From contig DAIOSV010000001.1 in the NCBI GenBank assembly GCA_036752345.1, positions 44,884 through 108,883 of the forward strand: DNA of 64,000 nt, in the 5' to 3' direction. This stretch comes from Bacteroidales bacterium (GTDB taxonomy: Bacteria > Bacteroidota > Bacteroidia > Bacteroidales > UBA1715). Positions within the stretch are counted from its first letter, which is position 1, and every line of letters starts with the position of its first letter. Under the pieces are notes generated by a model. The model was not told the DNA's origin and ran no database searches. It saw nothing but the letters and a program-made list of their open reading frames with translations. This document shows positions 42,182-49,805 of the stretch, in pieces. Both the position numbers and the translations under genes were made by a program.

Positions 42182-43111
42182 ATGTGGCATTTTAAAAAAA
42201 ATCGTATGCAAAGTAACACAAGACTATTTCGAGTATTAATCGTTTTTGGACTAATATTTGGTACTGTGAGTTGTAGCAATTCCGGTAAATCAAAATCTTC
42301 TGATGCAGATACGCTAAATAGTGAGCAAAAGCAGAAAGAGAAAGTGGTGAACGATGTAAAGAAAGTAATGTATTCTTTACCATCTCCAGTAGAAACTTCA
42401 TTACTTATGAAGAAAGCCGGTGCTCGTTATGACGCTGCGTTATTAAATCCTACGACAAACTTCAATAAATATAATACCGATAAACAAAAAGCATTGAATC
42501 TAGGTATTTATGGTGCTGATTTGAGTTACGCAAGTATCTTCGAACAAGATCAAACCATTATGCAGTATATGCAAGTTTCAAAGAAAATGGCTATCGGTTT
42601 AGATTTATTACAAGCTATCGATCAATCAATTATTGATAGATTGGAAGCAAACCATGACAATCGCGACTCTGTTATCCGCATCATTTCTGAAACATTCTTA
42701 AATTCAAACTCTACATTAAAAGAAGACAATCGTCCTGAAATCGCTGCAATGATTTTGGCCGGAGGTTGGGTAGAAGGTTTGTATTTAGCAACTCAATTAA
42801 CCAATGATGTTAAAAAAGATAAAGAGTTGGTTGAAAGAATTGTTGAACAAAAGCTTTCTTTTGGCGAAATGGAAAAACTTTTGGGACAATATGTTCAAAA
42901 TCCTGATATCGCTGAGGTCGTTAATAAATTACAACCAATTTCTAAAGCATTTAACTCTATAGAAATAGTTAAATCATCAATTGAAGTTGTAGATAATGAA
43001 GCAACTAATCAATCTGTGTTGAAATCAACACAAAAAATTAATATAACTCAAGCGCAGTACAATAACTTAAAAGCCGAAGCTGCAAAACTGAGAAACTCAT
43101 TTGTCCAATAA
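42182..43111 (+). CDS. Lipoprotein of unknown function
   Basis: 309 aa with lipobox FGTVSC (an alternative start at Met9, 42206, gives a standard-length signal). Helical body with no recognisable catalytic motif. Confidence 0.6.
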   Translation: MWHFKKNRMQSNTRLFRVLIVFGLIFGTVSCSNSGKSKSSDADTLNSEQKQKEKVVNDVKKVMYSLPSPVETSLLMKKAGARYDAALLNPTTNFNKYNTDKQKALNLGIYGADLSYASIFEQDQTIMQYMQVSKKMAIGLDLLQAIDQSIIDRLEANHDNRDSVIRIISETFLNSNSTLKEDNRPEIAAMILAGGWVEGLYLATQLTNDVKKDKELVERIVEQKLSFGEMEKLLGQYVQNPDIAEVVNKLQPISKAFNSIEIVKSSIEVVDNEATNQSVLKSTQKINITQAQYNNLKAEAAKLRNSFVQ

Positions 43112-43130
43112 TTTAAAGAATAGCAATAGT

Positions 43131-43574
43131 ATGAAAAACGTTTATAAAATTTTAGTATTGGTAGTATCGTTCGTATTATTAGGAACTTTATCTTACGGAC
43201 AATGTAGAACATTCGCTAAGAGTGAATGTAAACCAAGTTTGGAACCATATGTTCATGATGGAATCTTCAATGCCACTGAATTGGGCGAAGGTGAGTCTGC
43301 AGAACTATATAAGACTTTCTATTCAAATCAAAACTATCGTATCGCAATCTGCGGTGACCAACAACTTCCGAGAATTAAATTCTCTATCATGGATGCCGAT
43401 AGAAATGTTTTGTTCACAAATGCAAAACATTCATACAAACGTGTGTGGGATTTCAAAATGGAGTCAAGTCAACAATTGATTATCTCCATAGAAGTTGAAA
43501 CCAATGACGAAAAAGTGAGTGATGAAACTGCTCGTGGTTGCGTTGCCGTACTCGTTGGATTCTCTGCTGAATAA
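43131..43574 (+). CDS. Small secreted protein of unknown function
   Basis: ATG at 43131 is preferred over the track's TTG at 43101. MKNVYKILVLVVSFVLLGTLSYGQ signal. Beta-rich, 4 Cys. 19 nt after the preceding lipoprotein gene. Confidence 0.6.
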   Translation: MKNVYKILVLVVSFVLLGTLSYGQCRTFAKSECKPSLEPYVHDGIFNATELGEGESAELYKTFYSNQNYRIAICGDQQLPRIKFSIMDADRNVLFTNAKHSYKRVWDFKMESSQQLIISIEVETNDEKVSDETARGCVAVLVGFSAE

Positions 43575-43597: not shown

Positions 43598-43634
43598 AAA
43601 GCTGTCAATTTCATTTTTGACAGCTTTCTTTTTG
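43598..43634 (+). terminator. Intrinsic terminator after the 42.2-43.6 kb gene pair
   Basis: 11-bp stem AAAGCTGTCAA / TTGACAGCTTT (43598-43627) followed by CTTTTTG. It overlaps the 5' extension of track ORF 43617.., supporting the ATG at 43638. Confidence 0.75.
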
Positions 43635-43637
43635 TCA

Positions 43638-45494
43638 ATGGCAATCCTACAAGTAGAAAATATAACAAAATACTACGGCGAATATCTTTTATTTGATGAT
43701 TTGTCGTTTGTGATTAATCGAGGCGAACGTATCGCTTTGGTTGCAAAAAACGGCATGGGCAAAACCACGCTCATTAAAATCATTATGGGAAAAGACGAGC
43801 CGGAGTCTGGACGAGTGTTGATAGAACCGGGAGTTTCGGTTGGCTATCTAGACCAAGATACAAAATTGGAATCGTCGGCAACGGTATTCGATGAAATTTA
43901 TTCGGCAAATGAAGACGTGTTGAGTGCCATAGCAAAATATACCGAGGCATTAGCGGCTGGCGACGAGAAACGCATACAAGTAGCTTCTGATACCATGGAC
44001 GCTACCGAGGCATGGAATTATGAGGCTCGTGTAAAACTTATCCTTACAAAACTTCAATTGCCTTCGGCTCAAAAAATATCAGAACTTTCGGGTGGGCAAC
44101 AAAAACGTGTGGCGCTTGCCAAAATCCTAATTCTTGCTCCGGATTTGTTAATACTTGATGAGCCAACCAACCATTTGGATATTTCAATTATAGAGTGGCT
44201 TGAAGAATACCTAAAAACCATTCGCAGCACGCTGCTTTTGGTAACGCACGATAGGTATTTCCTTGATTCAGTGTGTGATTGCATATTGGAGCTATCAAAC
44301 AAAACCACCTACCGTTACAAAGGCAATTATTCATATTATCTAGAGAAAAAACAAGAACGATTGCAGGTAGAAAGCGCCGAAGTGCAAAAAGCAAAAAATC
44401 TCATGCGCAAAGAATTGGATTGGATTCGCCGTCAGCCGCAGGCTCGCGGAACAAAGGCGAAATACCGCGTTGATGCGTATGAAGACTTGAAAGAAAAAGC
44501 ACAGACGAAGATAGAAGGCGATAGTGATATTATTATCAACGTAGCAAGCCAATATCTTGGAAATAAAGTCGTTGACTTGAAAAGCATCTACAAATCGTAT
44601 GGCGATAAACAGGTGTTGTCAAAGGTTTCATACTCGTTTCAACGTGGAGAACGTGTGGGACTTATTGGTGAAAACGGCTGTGGAAAATCAACGTTACTGA
44701 ATATAATAACCCAACAACTCCAACCTGATGCAGGCACTGTTGATTGGGGCGATACCGTTTCTATTGGATATTACAAGCAAAACGGGCTGTTGGGCTGCGA
44801 TGGCAAGCATGTGATTGATGTTATAAAAGATATTTCCGACAAAATTGAGTTGGAAAAAAGCCATACTATTAGCGCTGCGCAATATTTGGAACAGTGGAAT
44901 TTCCCTCGTTCCGTGCAGTATATGTATGTCTCAAAATTGAGTGGAGGTGAGAAAAAACGCCTCTATTTAATGACGGTGTTGATGCAAAAACCTAATTTCT
45001 TGCTCCTCGACGAACCTACCAATGATTTGGATTTATTTACCATACAACTCCTGGAAGAATATTTGTTGCACTTCAAAGGCTCGGTTTTGGTGGTTTCTCA
45101 CGATAGATTTTTTATTGATAAAGTTGTAGATCATTTGCTTCTTTTTAAAGAAAATGGCGAAATATCTGACTTCCCTGGAAATTACTCAGCCTATCGCGAG
45201 TATCTTGAAAAACAAACGCAACCCAAAGAGGTAAAAGAGCCGCTTAAAAAAGCTGCGCAAACCATTGAAGCAACCAAGAAAAAAGGGCTGAGCTACAAGG
45301 AACAGCAATTATTTACTAAGACGGAACAAGAAATTAAAGATTTAGAACAGGAAAAAAAAGATTTAGAGTTATCTTTGGAATCTGGTATACTAGGACAAGA
45401 TGATTTAGTCCAAAAATCCCAGCGAATAGGCGAAGTTTTTGCTTTGCTCAATGAAAAAGAGATGATATGGCTTGAATTAAGTGAAAAAATGTAA
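43638..45494 (+). CDS. ABC-F family ATPase (Uup-like, no TM domain, C-terminal coiled coil)
   Basis: Start moved to MAILQVENITKYYG. Two ABC cassettes (Walker A AKNGMGKTT / GENGCGKST; signatures LSGGQQKRV / LSGGEKKRL) and a Lys/Glu-rich C-terminal helix. Confidence 0.9.
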   Translation: MAILQVENITKYYGEYLLFDDLSFVINRGERIALVAKNGMGKTTLIKIIMGKDEPESGRVLIEPGVSVGYLDQDTKLESSATVFDEIYSANEDVLSAIAKYTEALAAGDEKRIQVASDTMDATEAWNYEARVKLILTKLQLPSAQKISELSGGQQKRVALAKILILAPDLLILDEPTNHLDISIIEWLEEYLKTIRSTLLLVTHDRYFLDSVCDCILELSNKTTYRYKGNYSYYLEKKQERLQVESAEVQKAKNLMRKELDWIRRQPQARGTKAKYRVDAYEDLKEKAQTKIEGDSDIIINVASQYLGNKVVDLKSIYKSYGDKQVLSKVSYSFQRGERVGLIGENGCGKSTLLNIITQQLQPDAGTVDWGDTVSIGYYKQNGLLGCDGKHVIDVIKDISDKIELEKSHTISAAQYLEQWNFPRSVQYMYVSKLSGGEKKRLYLMTVLMQKPNFLLLDEPTNDLDLFTIQLLEEYLLHFKGSVLVVSHDRFFIDKVVDHLLLFKENGEISDFPGNYSAYREYLEKQTQPKEVKEPLKKAAQTIEATKKKGLSYKEQQLFTKTEQEIKDLEQEKKDLELSLESGILGQDDLVQKSQRIGEVFALLNEKEMIWLELSEKM

Positions 45495-45505
45495 AAATAA
45501 ACGAT

Positions 45506-47755
45506 ATGAGTAAGAAGAGCTATGACTGGCAATATGCCACTGTTGGCGGAGTTCCCCGCGTTGACATTAAATCAGGTGCTGATATCGCACATTTGGGCGA
45601 ATTAGATCAAAAAATGTGGACAGTCTTGAGTTGTCCGGTTAAGGATCTTGAAATAGACACCAAGACCTTACAAATGATGGACAAAGACAATGATGGTAAA
45701 ATTCGTGTAAACGAAGTAGTTGAAGCTGCCGAATGGGCAACAAAAGTTCTCAAAGACCCGGAATTGTTGTTGAAGCAACAAGGAACGCTTCCGCTTGCTG
45801 CCATTAATCAAGATACTGATGAAGGAAAGAAAATCTATAATTCTGCAAAAGAAATATTGAAGAACCTTGGTCTCACCAAAGATTCAATTTCAATTGAAGA
45901 TACTGCCGATAGTCTTGCCATTTTTGCTAAAACCAGATTCAATGGCGATGGCGTTATTACCGTAAATTCTACTGACGATGAGGCTCTCAAAGCTATCATT
46001 GATGCTTGTATCAAAACAATAGGTTCAAGTCCCGACAGAAGTGGCGAAGCTGGTGTTACAGCTGAGCAACTTGAGGCATTCTATACTGCTTGTGCAGACT
46101 ATACTACATGGCTTGCTAGTGCCGATGCCGACAAAGCTGCTAATTTCCCATACGGCGACAATACTGCTGCTGCTTTGGCTGCCTTCAAGACATTGCAAGA
46201 CAAAATCAACGATTACTTTATGCGTTGTAAACTTGCCGCATTTGACGAAGATTCTACGGCAGCATTAGATGTTTCTGTGGCTCGTTTTGAAGCTATTAGC
46301 GACAAAAATCTTGCAACGTGCAACGATGAAATTTCTTCATATCCGCTTGCTCGTGTGAGCAAAAAGAAAGAATTGCCTCTTGTTGAAGGTATTAATCCGG
46401 CGTGGGAAGGGGCTTTTGCCGAACTAAAACGTTTGGTTTTTGATGTTGATTTTTCAAAACAGAAAACACTCTCTGAAGAAGATTGGCAGAGCGTTGTGGC
46501 TAAATTTAAACCATACGAAACATGGCTTTCTCAAAAGAAAGGTGAAGTAGTAGAATCGCTTGGTGCTGATGTGTTGAACACTATAGTTGCCAAAAATCAA
46601 AAAGATGCGTTACTCTCGTTGGTAGCCGAAGATAAAGCATTGGAGGCTGAAGCTCAAGAAATTGAGGCAGTCGACAAAATGTTGCACCTCTGCCGCGATT
46701 TATTCCGTTTGATTAAGAACTATGTAACGTTTACCGACTTTTATTCTCGCGACAAAGATAATATGGCAATTTTCCAGGCTGGTACTCTCTTTGTTGACCA
46801 ACGCAGCTGCGACCTTTGTATTCGTGTAACCGATATGGCTAAACACAATACCATGGCTACGTATAGCGGCATGTATTTGTTGTACTGCGATTGCTATTCA
46901 AAACAGAAAAACGAAACCATGACCATCGTTGCCGTAATGACCGATGGTGATGTTGATGATTTGTTGGTAGGCAAGAATGCTATTTTCTACGACAGAGACG
47001 GGTTGGATTGGGATGCTAAGATTGTGAAGATAATTGATAACCCAATTAGTATTCGTCAGGCATTTTGGGCACCGTACAAGAAATTTGCAAACTGGGTTAC
47101 CGGTTTAATTAATAAATCTGCTGCAGAAAAAGACTCCAAGTCTTTTGATACGGTGACAAAAAGTGTTACCGAAAAGACAGAGACAGCTGCTGTTCCAGAC
47201 AAACCAGCTGATCCAGCAAAAGCGCAACCGTTCGATATTGCCAAATTTGCCGGTATTTTCGCAGCCATAGGTATGGCTTTGGGCTTCATTGGCTCGTTCG
47301 TAGTGAGTGTAGTTTCAGGCTTTGCAAAACTTTCATGGTGGCAAGCTATCTTGGCATTTGTTGCCATTTTGTTGCTCATTTCCGGTCCATCAATGATTAT
47401 GGCTTGGTTAAAGTTGCGCAAGCGCAATCTTGCTCCTTTGTTAGATTCTAACGGTTGGGCAGTGAACGCTCGTGCTTATGTTAACATTACATTTGGTGCT
47501 ACGCTTACCAAAATAGCAGCGTTCCCAACGGTAGTGTTACAAGACCCATACGCTGACAAGGGAATGCCAATGTGGAAGAAAATTCTTATCACCGTGGTAT
47601 TCTTAATAATAGTTTTTGGAGTTCTTTATTTCTTAGACGTATTCGCGTTCTTGGGATTCCCTTTCCATGAAGCACCTGCAGCAGTTGCCGACACGTTGCA
47701 AAAGGCAACTGACACGTTGGCTACTCACATTGATACAACGGCAATAGGAAAATAA
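45506..47755 (+). CDS. Large EF-hand-containing membrane protein, function unknown
   Basis: 749 aa with no signal peptide. Canonical 12-residue EF-hand loop DKDNDGKIRVNE (nt 45680-45715). A long soluble Ala/Asp-rich helical region is followed by 3 hydrophobic helices in the last ~170 aa (FAGIFAAIGMALGFIGSFVVSVV; WWQAILAFVAILLLISGPSMIMAW; ILITVVFLIIVFGVLYFLDVFAFLGF). Confidence 0.7.
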   Translation: MSKKSYDWQYATVGGVPRVDIKSGADIAHLGELDQKMWTVLSCPVKDLEIDTKTLQMMDKDNDGKIRVNEVVEAAEWATKVLKDPELLLKQQGTLPLAAINQDTDEGKKIYNSAKEILKNLGLTKDSISIEDTADSLAIFAKTRFNGDGVITVNSTDDEALKAIIDACIKTIGSSPDRSGEAGVTAEQLEAFYTACADYTTWLASADADKAANFPYGDNTAAALAAFKTLQDKINDYFMRCKLAAFDEDSTAALDVSVARFEAISDKNLATCNDEISSYPLARVSKKKELPLVEGINPAWEGAFAELKRLVFDVDFSKQKTLSEEDWQSVVAKFKPYETWLSQKKGEVVESLGADVLNTIVAKNQKDALLSLVAEDKALEAEAQEIEAVDKMLHLCRDLFRLIKNYVTFTDFYSRDKDNMAIFQAGTLFVDQRSCDLCIRVTDMAKHNTMATYSGMYLLYCDCYSKQKNETMTIVAVMTDGDVDDLLVGKNAIFYDRDGLDWDAKIVKIIDNPISIRQAFWAPYKKFANWVTGLINKSAAEKDSKSFDTVTKSVTEKTETAAVPDKPADPAKAQPFDIAKFAGIFAAIGMALGFIGSFVVSVVSGFAKLSWWQAILAFVAILLLISGPSMIMAWLKLRKRNLAPLLDSNGWAVNARAYVNITFGATLTKIAAFPTVVLQDPYADKGMPMWKKILITVVFLIIVFGVLYFLDVFAFLGFPFHEAPAAVADTLQKATDTLATHIDTTAIGK

Positions 47756-47758
47756 CGT

Positions 47759-48982
47759 ATGGTTCTCCATAGCACACAACAGAAGCAGCAACGGTTTATT
47801 CCCTTGCTGTTTCTTGTTTTATGCAATATCGCACTCATTTCGTACGTGGTTTCGTGCGCATCAACGCGGAGGCTTTGCGCAAGCAAAGCAACCCCGTACA
47901 ATATTGCGGTGCCATTTTTCCCCGATTCTATGAATATTCCTGCCGACAATCCTATGACGGTGGAAGGAGTAGAGTTGGGACGCTATTTGTTTTATGACGG
48001 ACGAATGTCGGGAAGAACCGACAAAGACAGCCTTATGTCGTGTGCCACGTGCCATAGACAGAGCCATTCGTTTGAATGTGGCATAGACCACCCAAAATAC
48101 AAAGGCGGACGTACCTTTGGGCTTACCGGCATACCTACGCCACATTTTATGATGCCACTCATCAATCTGGCATGGATAAACGAGGGCTATTTCTGGAATG
48201 GTATGATAAATAATAACAACCAGCATTTGGGCGGTCGTTATGGGGTACCCGCAACCAAAGAGTATAATTTTAAAAACATTGAATCGTTGGTGTGGATGAC
48301 TATTGTGGCTCCGCACGAATGCAATGGTTCTATACAACGCACCGTGGCTTTATTGCAGCAAGATCCTATGTATCCGCCCATGTTTAAACGTGCATTTGGT
48401 TCTGAAGAAATCAACATCGACCGCATATCAAAAGCTGTGGCGCAATTTGTGCGTTCGTTGGTTTCGTTCAATTCTAAGTTTGACCAATTTATGCGTGGAG
48501 AAACGAAACTCACCGATGCTGAAATGCGCGGATTCTTCTTGTTTACAACCGAAAAAGCGGACTGCTTTCATTGTCATGGTTCTCCAGCCTTGCCTTTGTG
48601 GACTACTAATTTGTTTATGAATAATGCCAAAGACATAGACTTCACCGACCGTGGCGACCGCTATGCCGTTACCGGCGATACGCTCGATCGTGGAAAATAT
48701 CGTGTGCCTACGTTGCGCAATATTGAATTTACTGCGCCTTATATGCATGATGGCCGTTTTTCTACCTTAGATGAAGTGTTGGAGTTTTATAACTCAAAAC
48801 TAAAACGTTCGCCTTATGTTGACCCGCTCATGATAAACGTGAACCATGGTGGCATGTTTTTGTCAAAAGAGGAGTTGGCCGATTTGAAAGCCTTTTTGCT
48901 CACCTTGTCAGATACCAGTTTCTTGCACAATCCGCAATACTCAAATCCGCTGCCGGATAATAAGTTTTTTATACGAGATTAG
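47759..48982 (+). CDS. Di-haem cytochrome c peroxidase / MauG family, lipoprotein
   Basis: 407 aa. Two CxxCH haem motifs (CATCH, CFHCH), PTLRNIEFTAPYMHDGRF block, lipobox-like VVSC. Starts 3 nt after the stop of the EF-hand protein gene. Confidence 0.88.
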   Translation: MVLHSTQQKQQRFIPLLFLVLCNIALISYVVSCASTRRLCASKATPYNIAVPFFPDSMNIPADNPMTVEGVELGRYLFYDGRMSGRTDKDSLMSCATCHRQSHSFECGIDHPKYKGGRTFGLTGIPTPHFMMPLINLAWINEGYFWNGMINNNNQHLGGRYGVPATKEYNFKNIESLVWMTIVAPHECNGSIQRTVALLQQDPMYPPMFKRAFGSEEINIDRISKAVAQFVRSLVSFNSKFDQFMRGETKLTDAEMRGFFLFTTEKADCFHCHGSPALPLWTTNLFMNNAKDIDFTDRGDRYAVTGDTLDRGKYRVPTLRNIEFTAPYMHDGRFSTLDEVLEFYNSKLKRSPYVDPLMINVNHGGMFLSKEELADLKAFLLTLSDTSFLHNPQYSNPLPDNKFFIRD

Positions 48983-48993
48983 CTGTTTGCCTT

Positions 48994-49035
48994 TGGCTAT
49001 TGGAAAAAATGCTAGTAGCTAAAGCCCAATAGCCA
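48994..49035. terminator. Hairpin between convergent genes (candidate bidirectional terminator, no U-tract)
   Basis: 10-bp stem TGGCTATTGG / CCAATAGCCA with a 22-nt loop, between the CCP stop (48982) and the acyltransferase stop (49041). The stem is nearly identical to the serA terminator stem. Confidence 0.45.
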
Positions 49036-49040
49036 GCAGT

Positions 49041-49805
49041 TTATAAAACCGTTGGTGTTTCAACGCCGTTTGGCCACGCGGCTTGATAGAAACCCTCAAG
49101 TTTGCGATTAAATTCGTGACGTCCCAATTTGCTCCATTCCAGAGCATCTGCAGTAATGTCTCTGTATTCAATGGAGACGTGACGTTTTTTCTTGAAAAAC
49201 AACACAAGAGTTATCAGTTGTAGAAACGCTTTGGCAAGCAAGCGCACTATTGAAGGGGTGCTGTCTCTGTTGTAACGGCTCCATTGACTCCCCCAAAGTC
49301 CGGTGATGCGTATGCCTATCACTGATGCATTGGCAGGAAGGTTTTTGCAAGCATCGTAGGCAAGTTGGCGGTTTCCAATGGTTTCACTTCCGTCAGTGGT
49401 AATGTGTCCTGAAGGATTGAGGAGCATTACGTCGCCGTTGGCAAGACTTTGGTTTACAATGTTAGGCAGTTGCATGACAAATGATGCATTACGTTTCATA
49501 TCGCGCACATCGGGCACAGGTACCGCATCAAACAGACGCAATAATCCTCTGACTATGGGTATCTTGAAATATGGTGCAAACGAAATAGCACGCATTGGGT
49601 ATTTGCCCAAAGTTGAAAATAAGAGAATGTTGTCAACAATGGCGCGATGACTTGGAAGCATTAGCATAGCTCCCGCAAAAGGTTCTTTTAGACACTCGCG
49701 ACCGCGTTCTTCTACCACGTAATGCGATTTGAGAATAATACGAATCTTAAAACAGAGCAATCTCCGTATGTTGTATCGTATAGTTTGTTTGAATGTTTTT
49801 GCCAT
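49041..49805 (-). CDS. PlsC-type (lysophospholipid/glycerol-3-phosphate) acyltransferase family protein
   Basis: 254 aa. HX4D motif (PSHRAIVDN) and a downstream NPSGHITTDG block. No signal peptide. Confidence 0.7.
   Translation of the reverse strand: MAKTFKQTIRYNIRRLLCFKIRIILKSHYVVEERGRECLKEPFAGAMLMLPSHRAIVDNILLFSTLGKYPMRAISFAPYFKIPIVRGLLRLFDAVPVPDVRDMKRNASFVMQLPNIVNQSLANGDVMLLNPSGHITTDGSETIGNRQLAYDACKNLPANASVIGIRITGLWGSQWSRYNRDSTPSIVRLLAKAFLQLITLVLFFKKKRHVSIEYRDITADALEWSKLGRHEFNRKLEGFYQAAWPNGVETPTVL

What the first reader, a model, noticed from the sequence alone, without database searches (positions are those of the whole stretch)
45506..48982. 749-aa cytoplasm-facing EF-hand protein with a C-terminal membrane anchor, apparently co-transcribed with a di-haem cytochrome c peroxidase
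Seen: the 749-aa ORF has no signal peptide and a textbook EF-hand loop (DKDNDGKIRVNE, nt 45680-45715). It has a second acidic loop-like stretch (FNGDGVITVNS), a ~550-aa helical soluble region, and three hydrophobic helices near the C-terminus. Only 3 nt separate its TAA from the ATG of a lipoprotein di-haem peroxidase (CATCH, CFHCH). No hairpin intervenes, and a hairpin follows the pair at 48994-49035. Established: canonical EF-hand proteins are rare in bacteria, and CCP/MauG enzymes detoxify H2O2 in the periplasm using electrons from the respiratory chain. Inference: this is a possible Ca2+-responsive membrane protein functionally tied to peroxide stress in an anaerobe. I cannot assign the large protein to any family from memory.
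Basis: partly seen in the sequence, partly recalled or inferred. Interest (0 to 1): 0.55.

Follow-up and report, generated by a model that had tools for sequence, protein, structure and literature searches.

The report
Unnamed EF-hand membrane protein; peroxidase unrelated
The large gene belongs to a big, widespread and completely unstudied family of bacterial inner-membrane proteins with a conserved calcium-binding-type loop, but its tight pairing with the neighbouring two-haem enzyme is a local accident of gene order, not a conserved functional unit.

Summary

The proposed functional tie to peroxide stress is not supported.
- Only 3 of 67 informative loci carrying a homologue of the large gene have the di-haem gene downstream. 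All three are in the window's own lineage.
- None of 24 relatives of the di-haem gene has the large gene nearby.
- The di-haem protein is MauG/MbnH-type, with Tyr344 at the haem-ligand position. Seven relatives are paired with MbnP instead.

The large protein belongs to an unnamed family:
- about 2,900 clusters at 50% identity, from Bacteroidota, Planctomycetota, Verrucomicrobiota, Desulfobacterota, Myxococcota, Acidobacteriota and Proteobacteria;
- no Pfam, NCBIfam, PHROG or PADLOC model;
- no conserved gene neighbour;
- no PDB or viral fold match, despite a confident AlphaFold model (pLDDT 87).

Its EF-type loop is nearly invariant but carries an unusual fixed Arg at position 9. The membrane module is as conserved as the head, so it is not a mere anchor.

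My best reading, which is inferred, is a stand-alone, cytoplasm-facing, divalent-cation-responsive membrane protein.

The parts
45506..47755 (+). Gene for the 749-aa member of an unnamed, pan-phylum inner-membrane protein family
   Evidence: ORF. More than 7,600 homologues, all 'hypothetical' with no Pfam domain. 2,937 clusters at 50% identity with E<=1e-3. AlphaFold model with mean pLDDT 87.3.
45680..45715 (+). EF-hand-type loop DKDNDGKIRVNE (aa 59-70), flanked by predicted helices 52-58 and 68-81
   Evidence: In 138 relatives: D59 138, D61 135, D63 137, G64 133, I66 128, R67 136, E70 135. Helices. Sub-threshold Pfam EF-hand hits. The motif with position 9 freed occurs in 0.9% of shuffles.
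45938..45970 (+). Degenerate EF-like loop FNGDGVITVNS (aa 145-155), part of a deletable subdomain (aa ~140-210)
   Evidence: N146, G147 and D148 are invariant, but loop positions 1 (R/K/Q) and 12 (S/A) are not ligands. The segment is absent from the ~550-650-aa subfamily. Weak alignment to calmodulin EF3 and to polcalcin, not significant.
46775..47035 (+). Most conserved soluble part: beta domain (aa 424-510) with C435-x2-C438, H447, C461-x-C463 and the motif NAxFYDRxGxDWDA
   Evidence: Strands. Conservation. Only non-significant Tudor-like Foldseek matches.
47051..47188 (+). Long stalk helix (aa 516-561), followed by a variable low-confidence linker (aa 562-577)
   Evidence: helix 516-561; pLDDT <50 for 562-573. 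Linker variability in the alignment.
47237..47419 (+). Conserved transmembrane hairpin. TM1 (aa 578-607) has a small-residue zipper G583/A586/A587/G589/G593/G596. TM2 (aa 611-638) has S626-G-P628.
47420..47569 (+). Conserved basic cytoplasmic loop after TM2 (aa 639-688), including R640, P644, L646, W651, A652, N654, G664, T668 and D680
   Evidence: Invariant columns. Residue profile. Positive-inside count.
47570..47752 (+). Variable third transmembrane helix (aa 689-709) and a variable, probably periplasmic tail
   Evidence: no conserved residues in TM3. (tail length 3-61 aa in relatives).
47759..48982 (+). Gene for a 407-aa lipoprotein-like MauG/MbnH-type di-haem enzyme. Lipobox Cys33 at 47855-47857, CATCH at 48041-48055, CFHCH at 48563-48577, Tyr344 at 48788-48790.
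   Evidence: Pfam CCP_MauG 2e-35. Best NCBIfam match is the MbnH family, 214 bits, below the 362.85 cut-off. Best PDB match is 6e1c at 2e-47. Tyr344 aligns with a Tyr of 6e1c and with the position of the terminal Met in 1iqc.
48982..49033 (.). Hairpin between the convergent di-haem gene and the acyltransferase gene (49041-49805, minus strand); a likely shared terminator
   Evidence: dG -22.8 kcal/mol, z -2.9. Sequence.
43617..45494 (+). Upstream ABC-F ATPase gene, 11 nt from the large gene. It is syntenic only in the same close lineage.
   Evidence: Pfam ABC_tran x2, ABC_tran_Xtn and ABC_tran_CTD. Synteny limited to L003, L039 and L066.

Best explanation
Two unrelated genes abut in one uncultured Bacteroidales lineage.

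Gene 1 encodes a member of a large, unnamed family of inner-membrane proteins of diderm bacteria. The gene stands alone in the genome. The protein has these parts:
- a ~560-aa cytoplasmic head with one nearly invariant EF-hand-type loop, a helical bundle, a Cys/His-rich beta domain and a stalk helix;
- a flexible tether;
- a highly conserved two-helix hairpin with a glycine/alanine zipper;
- a conserved basic juxtamembrane loop;
- a variable third helix.

Shown here: the architecture, the topology, the conservation, the breadth of the family, and the absence of any conserved partner gene.

Inferred: the protein works alone, probably as a homo-oligomer. Binding of Ca2+ or another divalent cation at the head loop would change the state of the conserved membrane module. 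That module could be a gated pore or transporter, or a membrane-stress effector. The logic resembles CorA-type or Ca2+-gated channels, where a cytoplasmic metal-sensing domain controls a small C-terminal membrane domain.

Gene 2 encodes a periplasmic lipoprotein di-haem enzyme of the MauG/MbnH type, with a His/Tyr haem. This type uses H2O2 to oxidise a protein substrate rather than scavenging peroxide. At this locus it lacks its usual MbnP partner.

The 3-nt spacing reflects compact gene packing and perhaps co-transcription, not a shared function.
For: The pair is not conserved:
- The di-haem gene is found downstream in 3 of 67 informative loci (L003, L039, L066), all >=69% identical to the window protein.
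- It is absent from 11 loci of other phyla.
- None of 24 relatives of the di-haem gene has the large gene nearby.
- No neighbour family occurs in more than 10 of 79 loci.

The family is broad and unnamed. It has no hits in Pfam, NCBIfam, PHROGs or PADLOC.

EF loop invariance.

Topology.

The membrane module is conserved and TM1 has a small-residue zipper.

The model is confident (pLDDT 87.3, pTM 0.72).

Type of the di-haem enzyme:
- the best NCBIfam match is the MbnH family;
- the best PDB match is 6e1c;
- Tyr344 sits at the ligand position, and PMC11892367 gives His-Tyr versus His-Met as the distinguishing criterion;
- MbnP (PF20243, 7e-21 and 9e-17) lies directly upstream in relatives;
- there is no MbnP in the window.
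Against: - No experiment or characterised homologue supports Ca2+ binding or any channel or transport activity.
- Arg at loop position 9 is atypical and might weaken or abolish Ca2+ binding.
- Pfam EF-hand scores are below threshold.
- hhalign against calmodulin gives a probability of only 4.7%.
- The oligomeric state was not modelled.
- In this lineage the two genes may still be co-expressed.
Confidence: 0.6

Rival explanations
1. One reading: the two genes form a functional operon in which a Ca2+-responsive membrane protein is coupled to periplasmic peroxide detoxification.
For: Same strand with a 3-nt gap and no intervening hairpin. A hairpin follows the pair. The arrangement is kept in three related MAG loci at 69-95% identity.
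Against: The adjacency is confined to one lineage (3 of 67 loci; none of 24 in the reciprocal test). The head of the large protein is cytoplasmic while the di-haem enzyme is a periplasmic lipoprotein. Only a variable tail of 3-61 aa could reach the periplasm. The enzyme is MauG/MbnH-type rather than a canonical scavenger. The upstream ABC-F gene is packed just as tightly (11 nt), which shows that close spacing here is not specific.
Confidence: 0.07
2. The EF-type loop is a structural metal site or binds no Ca2+ at all. The protein is then a constitutive membrane enzyme, transporter or scaffold whose activity does not depend on Ca2+.
For: Arg is fixed at loop position 9 (136 of 138 relatives), so no member matches the strict EF-hand pattern. 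There is a single good loop and no canonical partner loop. DxDxDG loops occur in many structural contexts (general knowledge). The beta domain and the membrane module, not the EF region, are the most conserved parts.
Against: All five canonical ligand or turn positions (1, 3, 5, 6, 12) are kept in at least 133 of 138 sequences from several phyla. They are also kept in the short subfamily, which has deleted the neighbouring loops. This argues that the site itself is selected.
Confidence: 0.28
3. The large head lies outside the cytoplasm (N-out topology) and acts as a periplasmic Ca2+-binding protein.
For: Free Ca2+ is far higher outside the cytoplasm, where most bacterial Ca2+ sites are occupied (general knowledge).
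Against: No signal peptide or N-terminal hydrophobic segment occurs in any of 138 relatives. The strongly basic TM2-TM3 loop (mean 9.4 K+R) places the head on the same, cytoplasmic side. Conserved CxxC and CxC motifs in the head fit a reducing compartment.
Confidence: 0.05

Closest known systems
EF-hand Ca2+-binding proteins (Pfam clan EF_hand; calmodulin-like, polcalcin; bacterial examples such as EfhP of Pseudomonas, named from my own knowledge)
   Same: A 12-residue loop with Asp at positions 1, 3 and 5, Gly at 6, Ile at 8 and Glu at 12, between two predicted helices. Weak, consistent sub-threshold EF-hand hits in 20 of 48 relatives.
   Different: There is one good loop only. Arg is fixed at position 9. 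Scores fall below the Pfam thresholds. The loop is embedded in a ~560-aa head of unmatched fold and joined to a conserved membrane module. hhalign probability against calmodulin is 4.7%.
CorA/Mrs2-type and other channels gated by a cytoplasmic metal-sensing domain (an analogy of architecture only, from my own knowledge)
   Same: A large N-terminal cytoplasmic domain with acidic metal sites, a long stalk helix, and a small C-terminal membrane domain with a short external loop and a basic segment after the last conserved helix.
   Different: No sequence or fold similarity was detected. There is no GMN motif. The stalk is separated from TM1 by a disordered linker. The oligomeric state and any ion conduction are untested.
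MbnH, the MauG-type di-haem enzyme of methanobactin and copper loci (PDB 6e1c; NCBIfam TIGR04039). This comparison concerns the downstream gene.
   Same: It is the best PDB and NCBIfam match. The alignment is full-length with a Tyr at the E-haem ligand position. Relatives at 64-67% identity sit directly after an MbnP gene.
   Different: The score of 214 bits is below the family cut-off of 362.85. There is no MbnP gene within the 64-kb window. The protein is lipoprotein-anchored, and its substrate is unknown.
Canonical bacterial cytochrome c peroxidases (e.g. Nitrosomonas europaea, PDB 1iqc)
   Same: Same superfamily, with two CxxCH motifs and the PF03150 domain.
   Different: Tyr344 replaces the Met ligand of the electron-transfer haem. 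According to PMC11892367 this separates the MauG-type enzymes from the H2O2-scavenging enzymes.

Membership tests
EF-hand (Pfam PF00036/PF13499; PROSITE PS00018) | Loop ligands at positions 1, 3, 5 and 12, Gly at 6 and a hydrophobic residue at 8 | tested here: met
   D59, D61, D63, G64, I66 and E70 are each kept in 128-138 of 138 relatives.
EF-hand (Pfam PF00036/PF13499; PROSITE PS00018) | Loop position 9 is one of D, E, N, Q, S, T, A, G or C (strict PROSITE pattern, quoted from memory) | tested here: not met
   The residue is Arg67 (136 of 138). None of 138 members matches the strict pattern; 134 match if position 9 is freed.
EF-hand (Pfam PF00036/PF13499; PROSITE PS00018) | Score above the Pfam gathering threshold | tested here: not met
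   EF-hand_7 scores 21.3 bits against a cut-off of 30. EF-hand_1 scores 15.9 against 25.4.
EF-hand (Pfam PF00036/PF13499; PROSITE PS00018) | Helix-loop-helix geometry | tested here: met
   The AlphaFold model has helix 52-58, the loop with a short strand at 65-67, and helix 68-81, all at pLDDT ~95-98. This is a prediction only.
EF-hand (Pfam PF00036/PF13499; PROSITE PS00018) | Pairing with a second EF-hand | tested here: inconclusive
   The NGDG loop (aa 146-155) and the DRSG loop (aa 177-188) are degenerate and are deleted in a subfamily. Weak alignments to calmodulin and polcalcin are not significant. The model coordinates could not be inspected.
EF-hand (Pfam PF00036/PF13499; PROSITE PS00018) | Binds Ca2+ | not testable with these tools
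   Needs ITC or a 45Ca overlay on the purified head.
Conserved functional gene pair (operon) of the large protein and the di-haem enzyme | The adjacency is kept across relatives of either gene | tested here: not met
   3 of 67 loci. None of 24 in the reciprocal test. None of 11 loci from other phyla.
Conserved functional gene pair (operon) of the large protein and the di-haem enzyme | Co-transcription in this organism | not testable with these tools
   The 3-nt gap is compatible with it. Promoter-motif counts are at the chance level. RT-PCR or RNA-seq is needed.
Di-haem CCP/MauG superfamily (PF03150) | Two CxxCH motifs and a domain score above threshold | tested here: met
   CATCH at 95 and CFHCH at 269. 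PF03150 scores 123 bits against a cut-off of 25.6.
Canonical H2O2-scavenging bacterial cytochrome c peroxidase | His/Met ligation of the electron-transfer haem | tested here: not met
   Tyr344 aligns with the position of the Met in 1iqc. The criterion comes from PMC11892367. This rests on alignment only, not on spectroscopy.
MbnH family (NCBIfam TIGR04039) | Score above the curated cut-off | tested here: not met
   214 bits against 362.85, although it is the best-scoring family.
MbnH family (NCBIfam TIGR04039) | An adjacent MbnP substrate gene | tested here: not met
   No MbnP-like sequence is found in the 64-kb window. An MbnP gene lies directly upstream in 7 relatives; two of these were confirmed with Pfam PF20243.
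Bacterial lipoprotein (for the di-haem enzyme) | Signal peptide ending in a lipobox with Cys | tested here: met
   Read from the sequence: basic n-region, hydrophobic core, then V-V-S-C33. No dedicated predictor was run.

The most novel reading that the evidence does not exclude
The 749-aa protein is a founding member of a previously undescribed, pan-phylum class of bacterial inner-membrane proteins. In this reading a cytoplasmic EF-hand-type Ca2+ sensor head gates or drives a conserved glycine-zipper membrane module. It would be a dedicated component of bacterial Ca2+ signalling or Ca2+-triggered membrane homeostasis, with a fold not yet represented in the PDB.
Probability: 0.2. Interest if true: 0.75.

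Novelty: new variant of a known kind. Interest (0 to 1): 0.42.

Why it matters
How bacteria sense and use cytoplasmic Ca2+ is still poorly understood, and few dedicated components are known. This protein belongs to a large family that carries no name or model in any library searched here, including Pfam, NCBIfam, PHROGs and PADLOC. The family is conserved at 42-47% identity between Bacteroidales and several other phyla. It has a nearly invariant EF-type loop, a conserved membrane module and a confident predicted structure with no solved relative. That makes it a concrete, testable candidate. The work also corrects a tempting over-reading: tight gene spacing in Bacteroidales is not evidence of shared function. 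The neighbouring 'peroxidase' is more likely a protein-modifying MauG/MbnH-type enzyme that has no partner at this locus.

Tried and rejected
- **Profile libraries.** Pfam, NCBIfam, PHROGs and PADLOC scans of the large protein and of 68 relatives gave only sub-threshold EF-hand hits. A few chance-level hits (MFS_1, Holin-X, DUF2207_C) came from the membrane helices.
- **PDB by sequence.** Single-sequence and profile searches found nothing significant.
- **Gene neighbourhood.** Clustering of neighbours in 79 Bacteroidales loci and inspection of 11 loci from other phyla found no shared partner.
- **Source names.** All names and cluster members read 'hypothetical protein'.
- **Literature.** Four full-text searches. 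None described this family; led to the MbnH and MauG papers used for the di-haem enzyme.
- **Phage and plasmid collections.** No phage match. One unannotated fragment lies on an Aeromonas plasmid.
- **Calmodulin comparison.** hhalign against calmodulin gave a probability of 4.7%.
- **Promoters and terminators.** Sigma-70 and Bacteroides -7-box scans were at the chance level, so they say nothing for or against an internal promoter.
- **Apparent paralogues.** Two copies in one MAG (L062, L065) are 100% identical, so they are an assembly duplicate.
- **The di-haem enzyme acting on the large protein.** I considered this and rejected it. Only a short, variable, Trp-free tail of the large protein can be periplasmic.


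Full report
**Observation.**
- The ORF 45506-47755 (+) gives 749 aa and cannot start further upstream.
- DKDNDGKIRVNE occupies aa 59-70 (nt 45680-45715), and FNGDGVITVNS occupies aa 145-155.
- A hydropathy scan finds nothing hydrophobic before aa 576, then three helices. The structure model places them at 578-607, 611-638 and 689-709.
- The stop codon TAA ends at 47755, and the next ATG is at 47759.
- The 407-aa product has CATCH and CFHCH motifs and a lipobox-like VVSC33. It hits Pfam CCP_MauG at 2e-35.
- A stable hairpin (48982-49033, -22.8 kcal/mol, z -2.9) separates it from a convergent acyltransferase gene.

**Is the pair a unit?** No.
- A scan of one genome per species returned 80 loci with a homologue of the large protein. 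67 of them have at least 600 nt downstream. The di-haem gene follows in only three (L003, L039, L066), at 69-95% identity to the window protein. Those three also share the upstream ABC-F gene and two small unknown genes, so this is plain synteny of a close lineage.
- Other loci at 68-69% identity (L004, L060) lack the di-haem gene.
- Clustering of all neighbouring ORFs found no family present in more than 10 of 79 loci.
- Eleven loci from Desulfobacterota, Gamma- and Betaproteobacteria, Verrucomicrobiota and unnamed metagenome lineages have unrelated neighbours and no di-haem gene.
- In the reciprocal test, 24 relatives of the di-haem gene (40-77% identity) never have the large gene nearby.
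- The large gene is also only 11 nt from the upstream ABC-F gene, so tight packing here is not specific.
- Whether the genes are co-transcribed in this organism cannot be read from the sequence. Sigma-70-like sites and Bacteroides-type -7 boxes occur at the chance rate.

**What the downstream gene is.**
- Its best curated family is MbnH (214 bits, below the cut-off of 362.85).
- Its best solved relative is 6e1c, at 2e-47 over the full length.
- Tyr344 aligns with a Tyr of 6e1c and with the position where the Nitrosomonas peroxidase 1iqc has Met.
- PMC11892367 states that canonical peroxidases have His-Met and MauG-type enzymes have His-Tyr at that haem. It also says MauG-type enzymes are poor peroxidases that use H2O2 to oxidise a protein, for example MbnH acting on MbnP. 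PMC11951088 describes the kynurenine that MbnH makes in MbnP.
- In seven relatives a ~247-aa gene sits directly upstream. Two of these were checked and are MbnP (PF20243, 7e-21 and 9e-17). Nine others have a DJ-1/PfpI gene upstream.
- The window has no MbnP-like sequence.
- The gene is therefore best described as an MbnH/MauG-type enzyme without its partner at this locus, not a plain peroxide scavenger.

**What the large protein is.** It has no match in Pfam (only sub-threshold EF-hand hits), NCBIfam, PHROGs or PADLOC.
- More than 7,600 homologues were scored in each of two searches, and every source name is 'hypothetical protein'.
- An exhaustive profile search found 2,937 clusters at 50% identity with E<=1e-3, and 1,173 with E<=1e-30. 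Most are full-length, at 700-770 aa.
- Named sources include Bacteroidales, Planctomycetota, Verrucomicrobiota, Desulfosoma, Syntrophus, Desulfobacteraceae, Myxococcota, an acidobacterial MAG, Chromatiaceae, Contendobacter, Nitrosomonas and several Comamonadaceae.
- Identity between the window protein and members from other phyla is 42-47% over the whole length. That is high for such distances.
- A shorter subfamily (~550-650 aa, mostly Betaproteobacteria) lacks aa ~140-210 and ~344-375 but keeps everything else.

**Anatomy.** With a 138-sequence alignment, AlphaFold gave mean pLDDT 87.3 and pTM 0.72. The model shows, in order:
- two short hairpins and the motif ELDQKxWxxLSCP;
- helix, EF loop, helix (aa 52-81);
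- a helical bundle to about aa 413;
- a beta domain (aa 424-510);
- a 46-residue stalk helix;
- a disordered variable linker;
- two long transmembrane helices with a 3-residue connection;
- a structured loop;
- a third helix and a disordered tail.

The EF loop keeps D1, D3, D5, G6, I8 and E12 in 128-138 of 138 sequences, but position 9 is always Arg. This single residue makes every member fail the strict PROSITE pattern, which I quoted from memory. With position 9 freed, 134 of 138 match, and only 0.9% of shuffled sequences do.

The second loop has an invariant N-G-D (Gly149 in 136 of 138) but no ligands at positions 1 and 12. It lies in the segment that the short subfamily has lost.

The beta domain holds C435-x2-C438, H447 and C461-x-C463 (>=94% conserved), plus many invariant Asp, Arg and Asn residues.

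TM1 has a face of small residues (G583, A586, A587, G589, G593, G596). TM2 has S626-G-P628. The following loop has R638, R640, P644, L646, W651, A652, N654, G664, T668 and D680 invariant. TM3 is variable. The C-terminal part is therefore a conserved functional module rather than an anchor.

**Topology.** No relative has an N-terminal hydrophobic segment. The TM2-TM3 loop carries on average 9.4 Lys+Arg, against 0.56 in the TM1-TM2 connection. By the positive-inside rule, the head and the conserved loop are cytoplasmic, and only the short connection and the variable tail are periplasmic.

**Mechanism.** The following are shown: the family, the architecture, the topology, the conservation pattern and the lack of a partner gene. 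The rest is inferred.
- A single-gene system with a strongly constrained metal-type loop in a cytoplasmic head and an equally constrained small membrane module most plausibly couples divalent-cation binding to a change in that module.
- The small-residue zipper in TM1 is typical of tightly packed homo-oligomeric helices. I therefore favour a gated pore or transport-like module, or a membrane-stress effector. The logic resembles CorA or Ca2+-gated channels, but no homology is implied.
- I put about 0.3 on this specific mechanism. I put about 0.85 on the statement that the protein works independently of the di-haem enzyme.
- The main rival is that the loop is a structural site or does not bind Ca2+, because of Arg9.

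Noticed in passing
window 47759-47929 (compare L001 12254-12425): Public annotations disagree on the start of the di-haem gene. An ENA contig aa from the ATG at 47759. The NCBI record GCA_964457125.1 aa from an internal Met, which would remove the signal peptide and lipobox. Relatives align from residue 6-10 onward, which favours the long form.
   Followed up: partly
L094 4459-5283, L096 1151-1879, and five further loci: Relatives of the window's di-haem gene (64-67% identity) sit directly after, and slightly overlap, an MbnP-family gene. Nine other relatives instead have a DJ-1/PfpI gene upstream, some of them with thioredoxin-like (AhpC/TSA) lipoprotein genes further upstream (seen in L099). 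MbnP-MbnH pairs thus appear in these metagenome relatives, which were not assigned to an organism.
   Followed up: partly
window 43598-43627: A perfect 11-bp-stem inverted repeat (AAAGCTGTCAA ... TTGACAGCTTT) lies between the 157-aa gene and the ABC-F gene. It overlaps the TTG at 43617 that the ORF list gives as the ABC-F start. The NCBI call is 619 aa rather than 625. It may be the terminator of the upstream pair.
   Followed up: no
window 42182-43574: Two overlapping genes for exported proteins of unknown function: a 309-aa product with a lipoprotein-like N-terminus and a 157-aa product. Neither has a Pfam hit. Both are syntenic with the ABC-F gene in L003, L039 and L066.
   Followed up: no
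window 51008 to about 56000 (L002 7032-11627): A cluster of a 505-aa unknown protein, a 416-aa SGNH/GDSL-type protein and a 615-aa MBOAT protein. The arrangement resembles polysaccharide or teichoic-acid O-acylation systems.
   Followed up: no
proteins P0140, P0164, P0226, P0240, P0249, P0257, P0265, P0270: A shorter subfamily (~550-650 aa) of the large protein occurs mainly in Betaproteobacteria (Rhodoferax, Curvibacter, Hylemonella, Sterolibacteriaceae). It has cleanly lost aa ~140-210 (the NGDG and DRSG loops) and aa ~344-375, but keeps EF loop 1, the beta domain and the membrane module.
   Followed up: partly
L115 1697-2125 (Aeromonas salmonicida plasmid pBY3, NZ_CP060033.1 61376-61804): An unannotated stretch on a conjugative plasmid, about 1 kb from tetR(Y) and tet(Y), encodes a fragment 40% identical to aa 337-482 of the large protein. 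It is probably a gene remnant.
   Followed up: partly
L013, L049, L059, L080: Bins labelled Erysipelotrichaceae, Eggerthellaceae, Clostridium and Eubacteriales carry copies 52-62% identical to the Bacteroidales protein. These contigs are probably mis-binned Bacteroidales DNA, so the family's apparent presence in Gram-positive bacteria should not be trusted.
   Followed up: no
L062 and L065 (same assembly, JAFTIM01): Two contigs of one MAG carry copies of the large protein that are 100% identical over 727 aa. This is an assembly duplicate rather than a pair of paralogues.
   Followed up: yes
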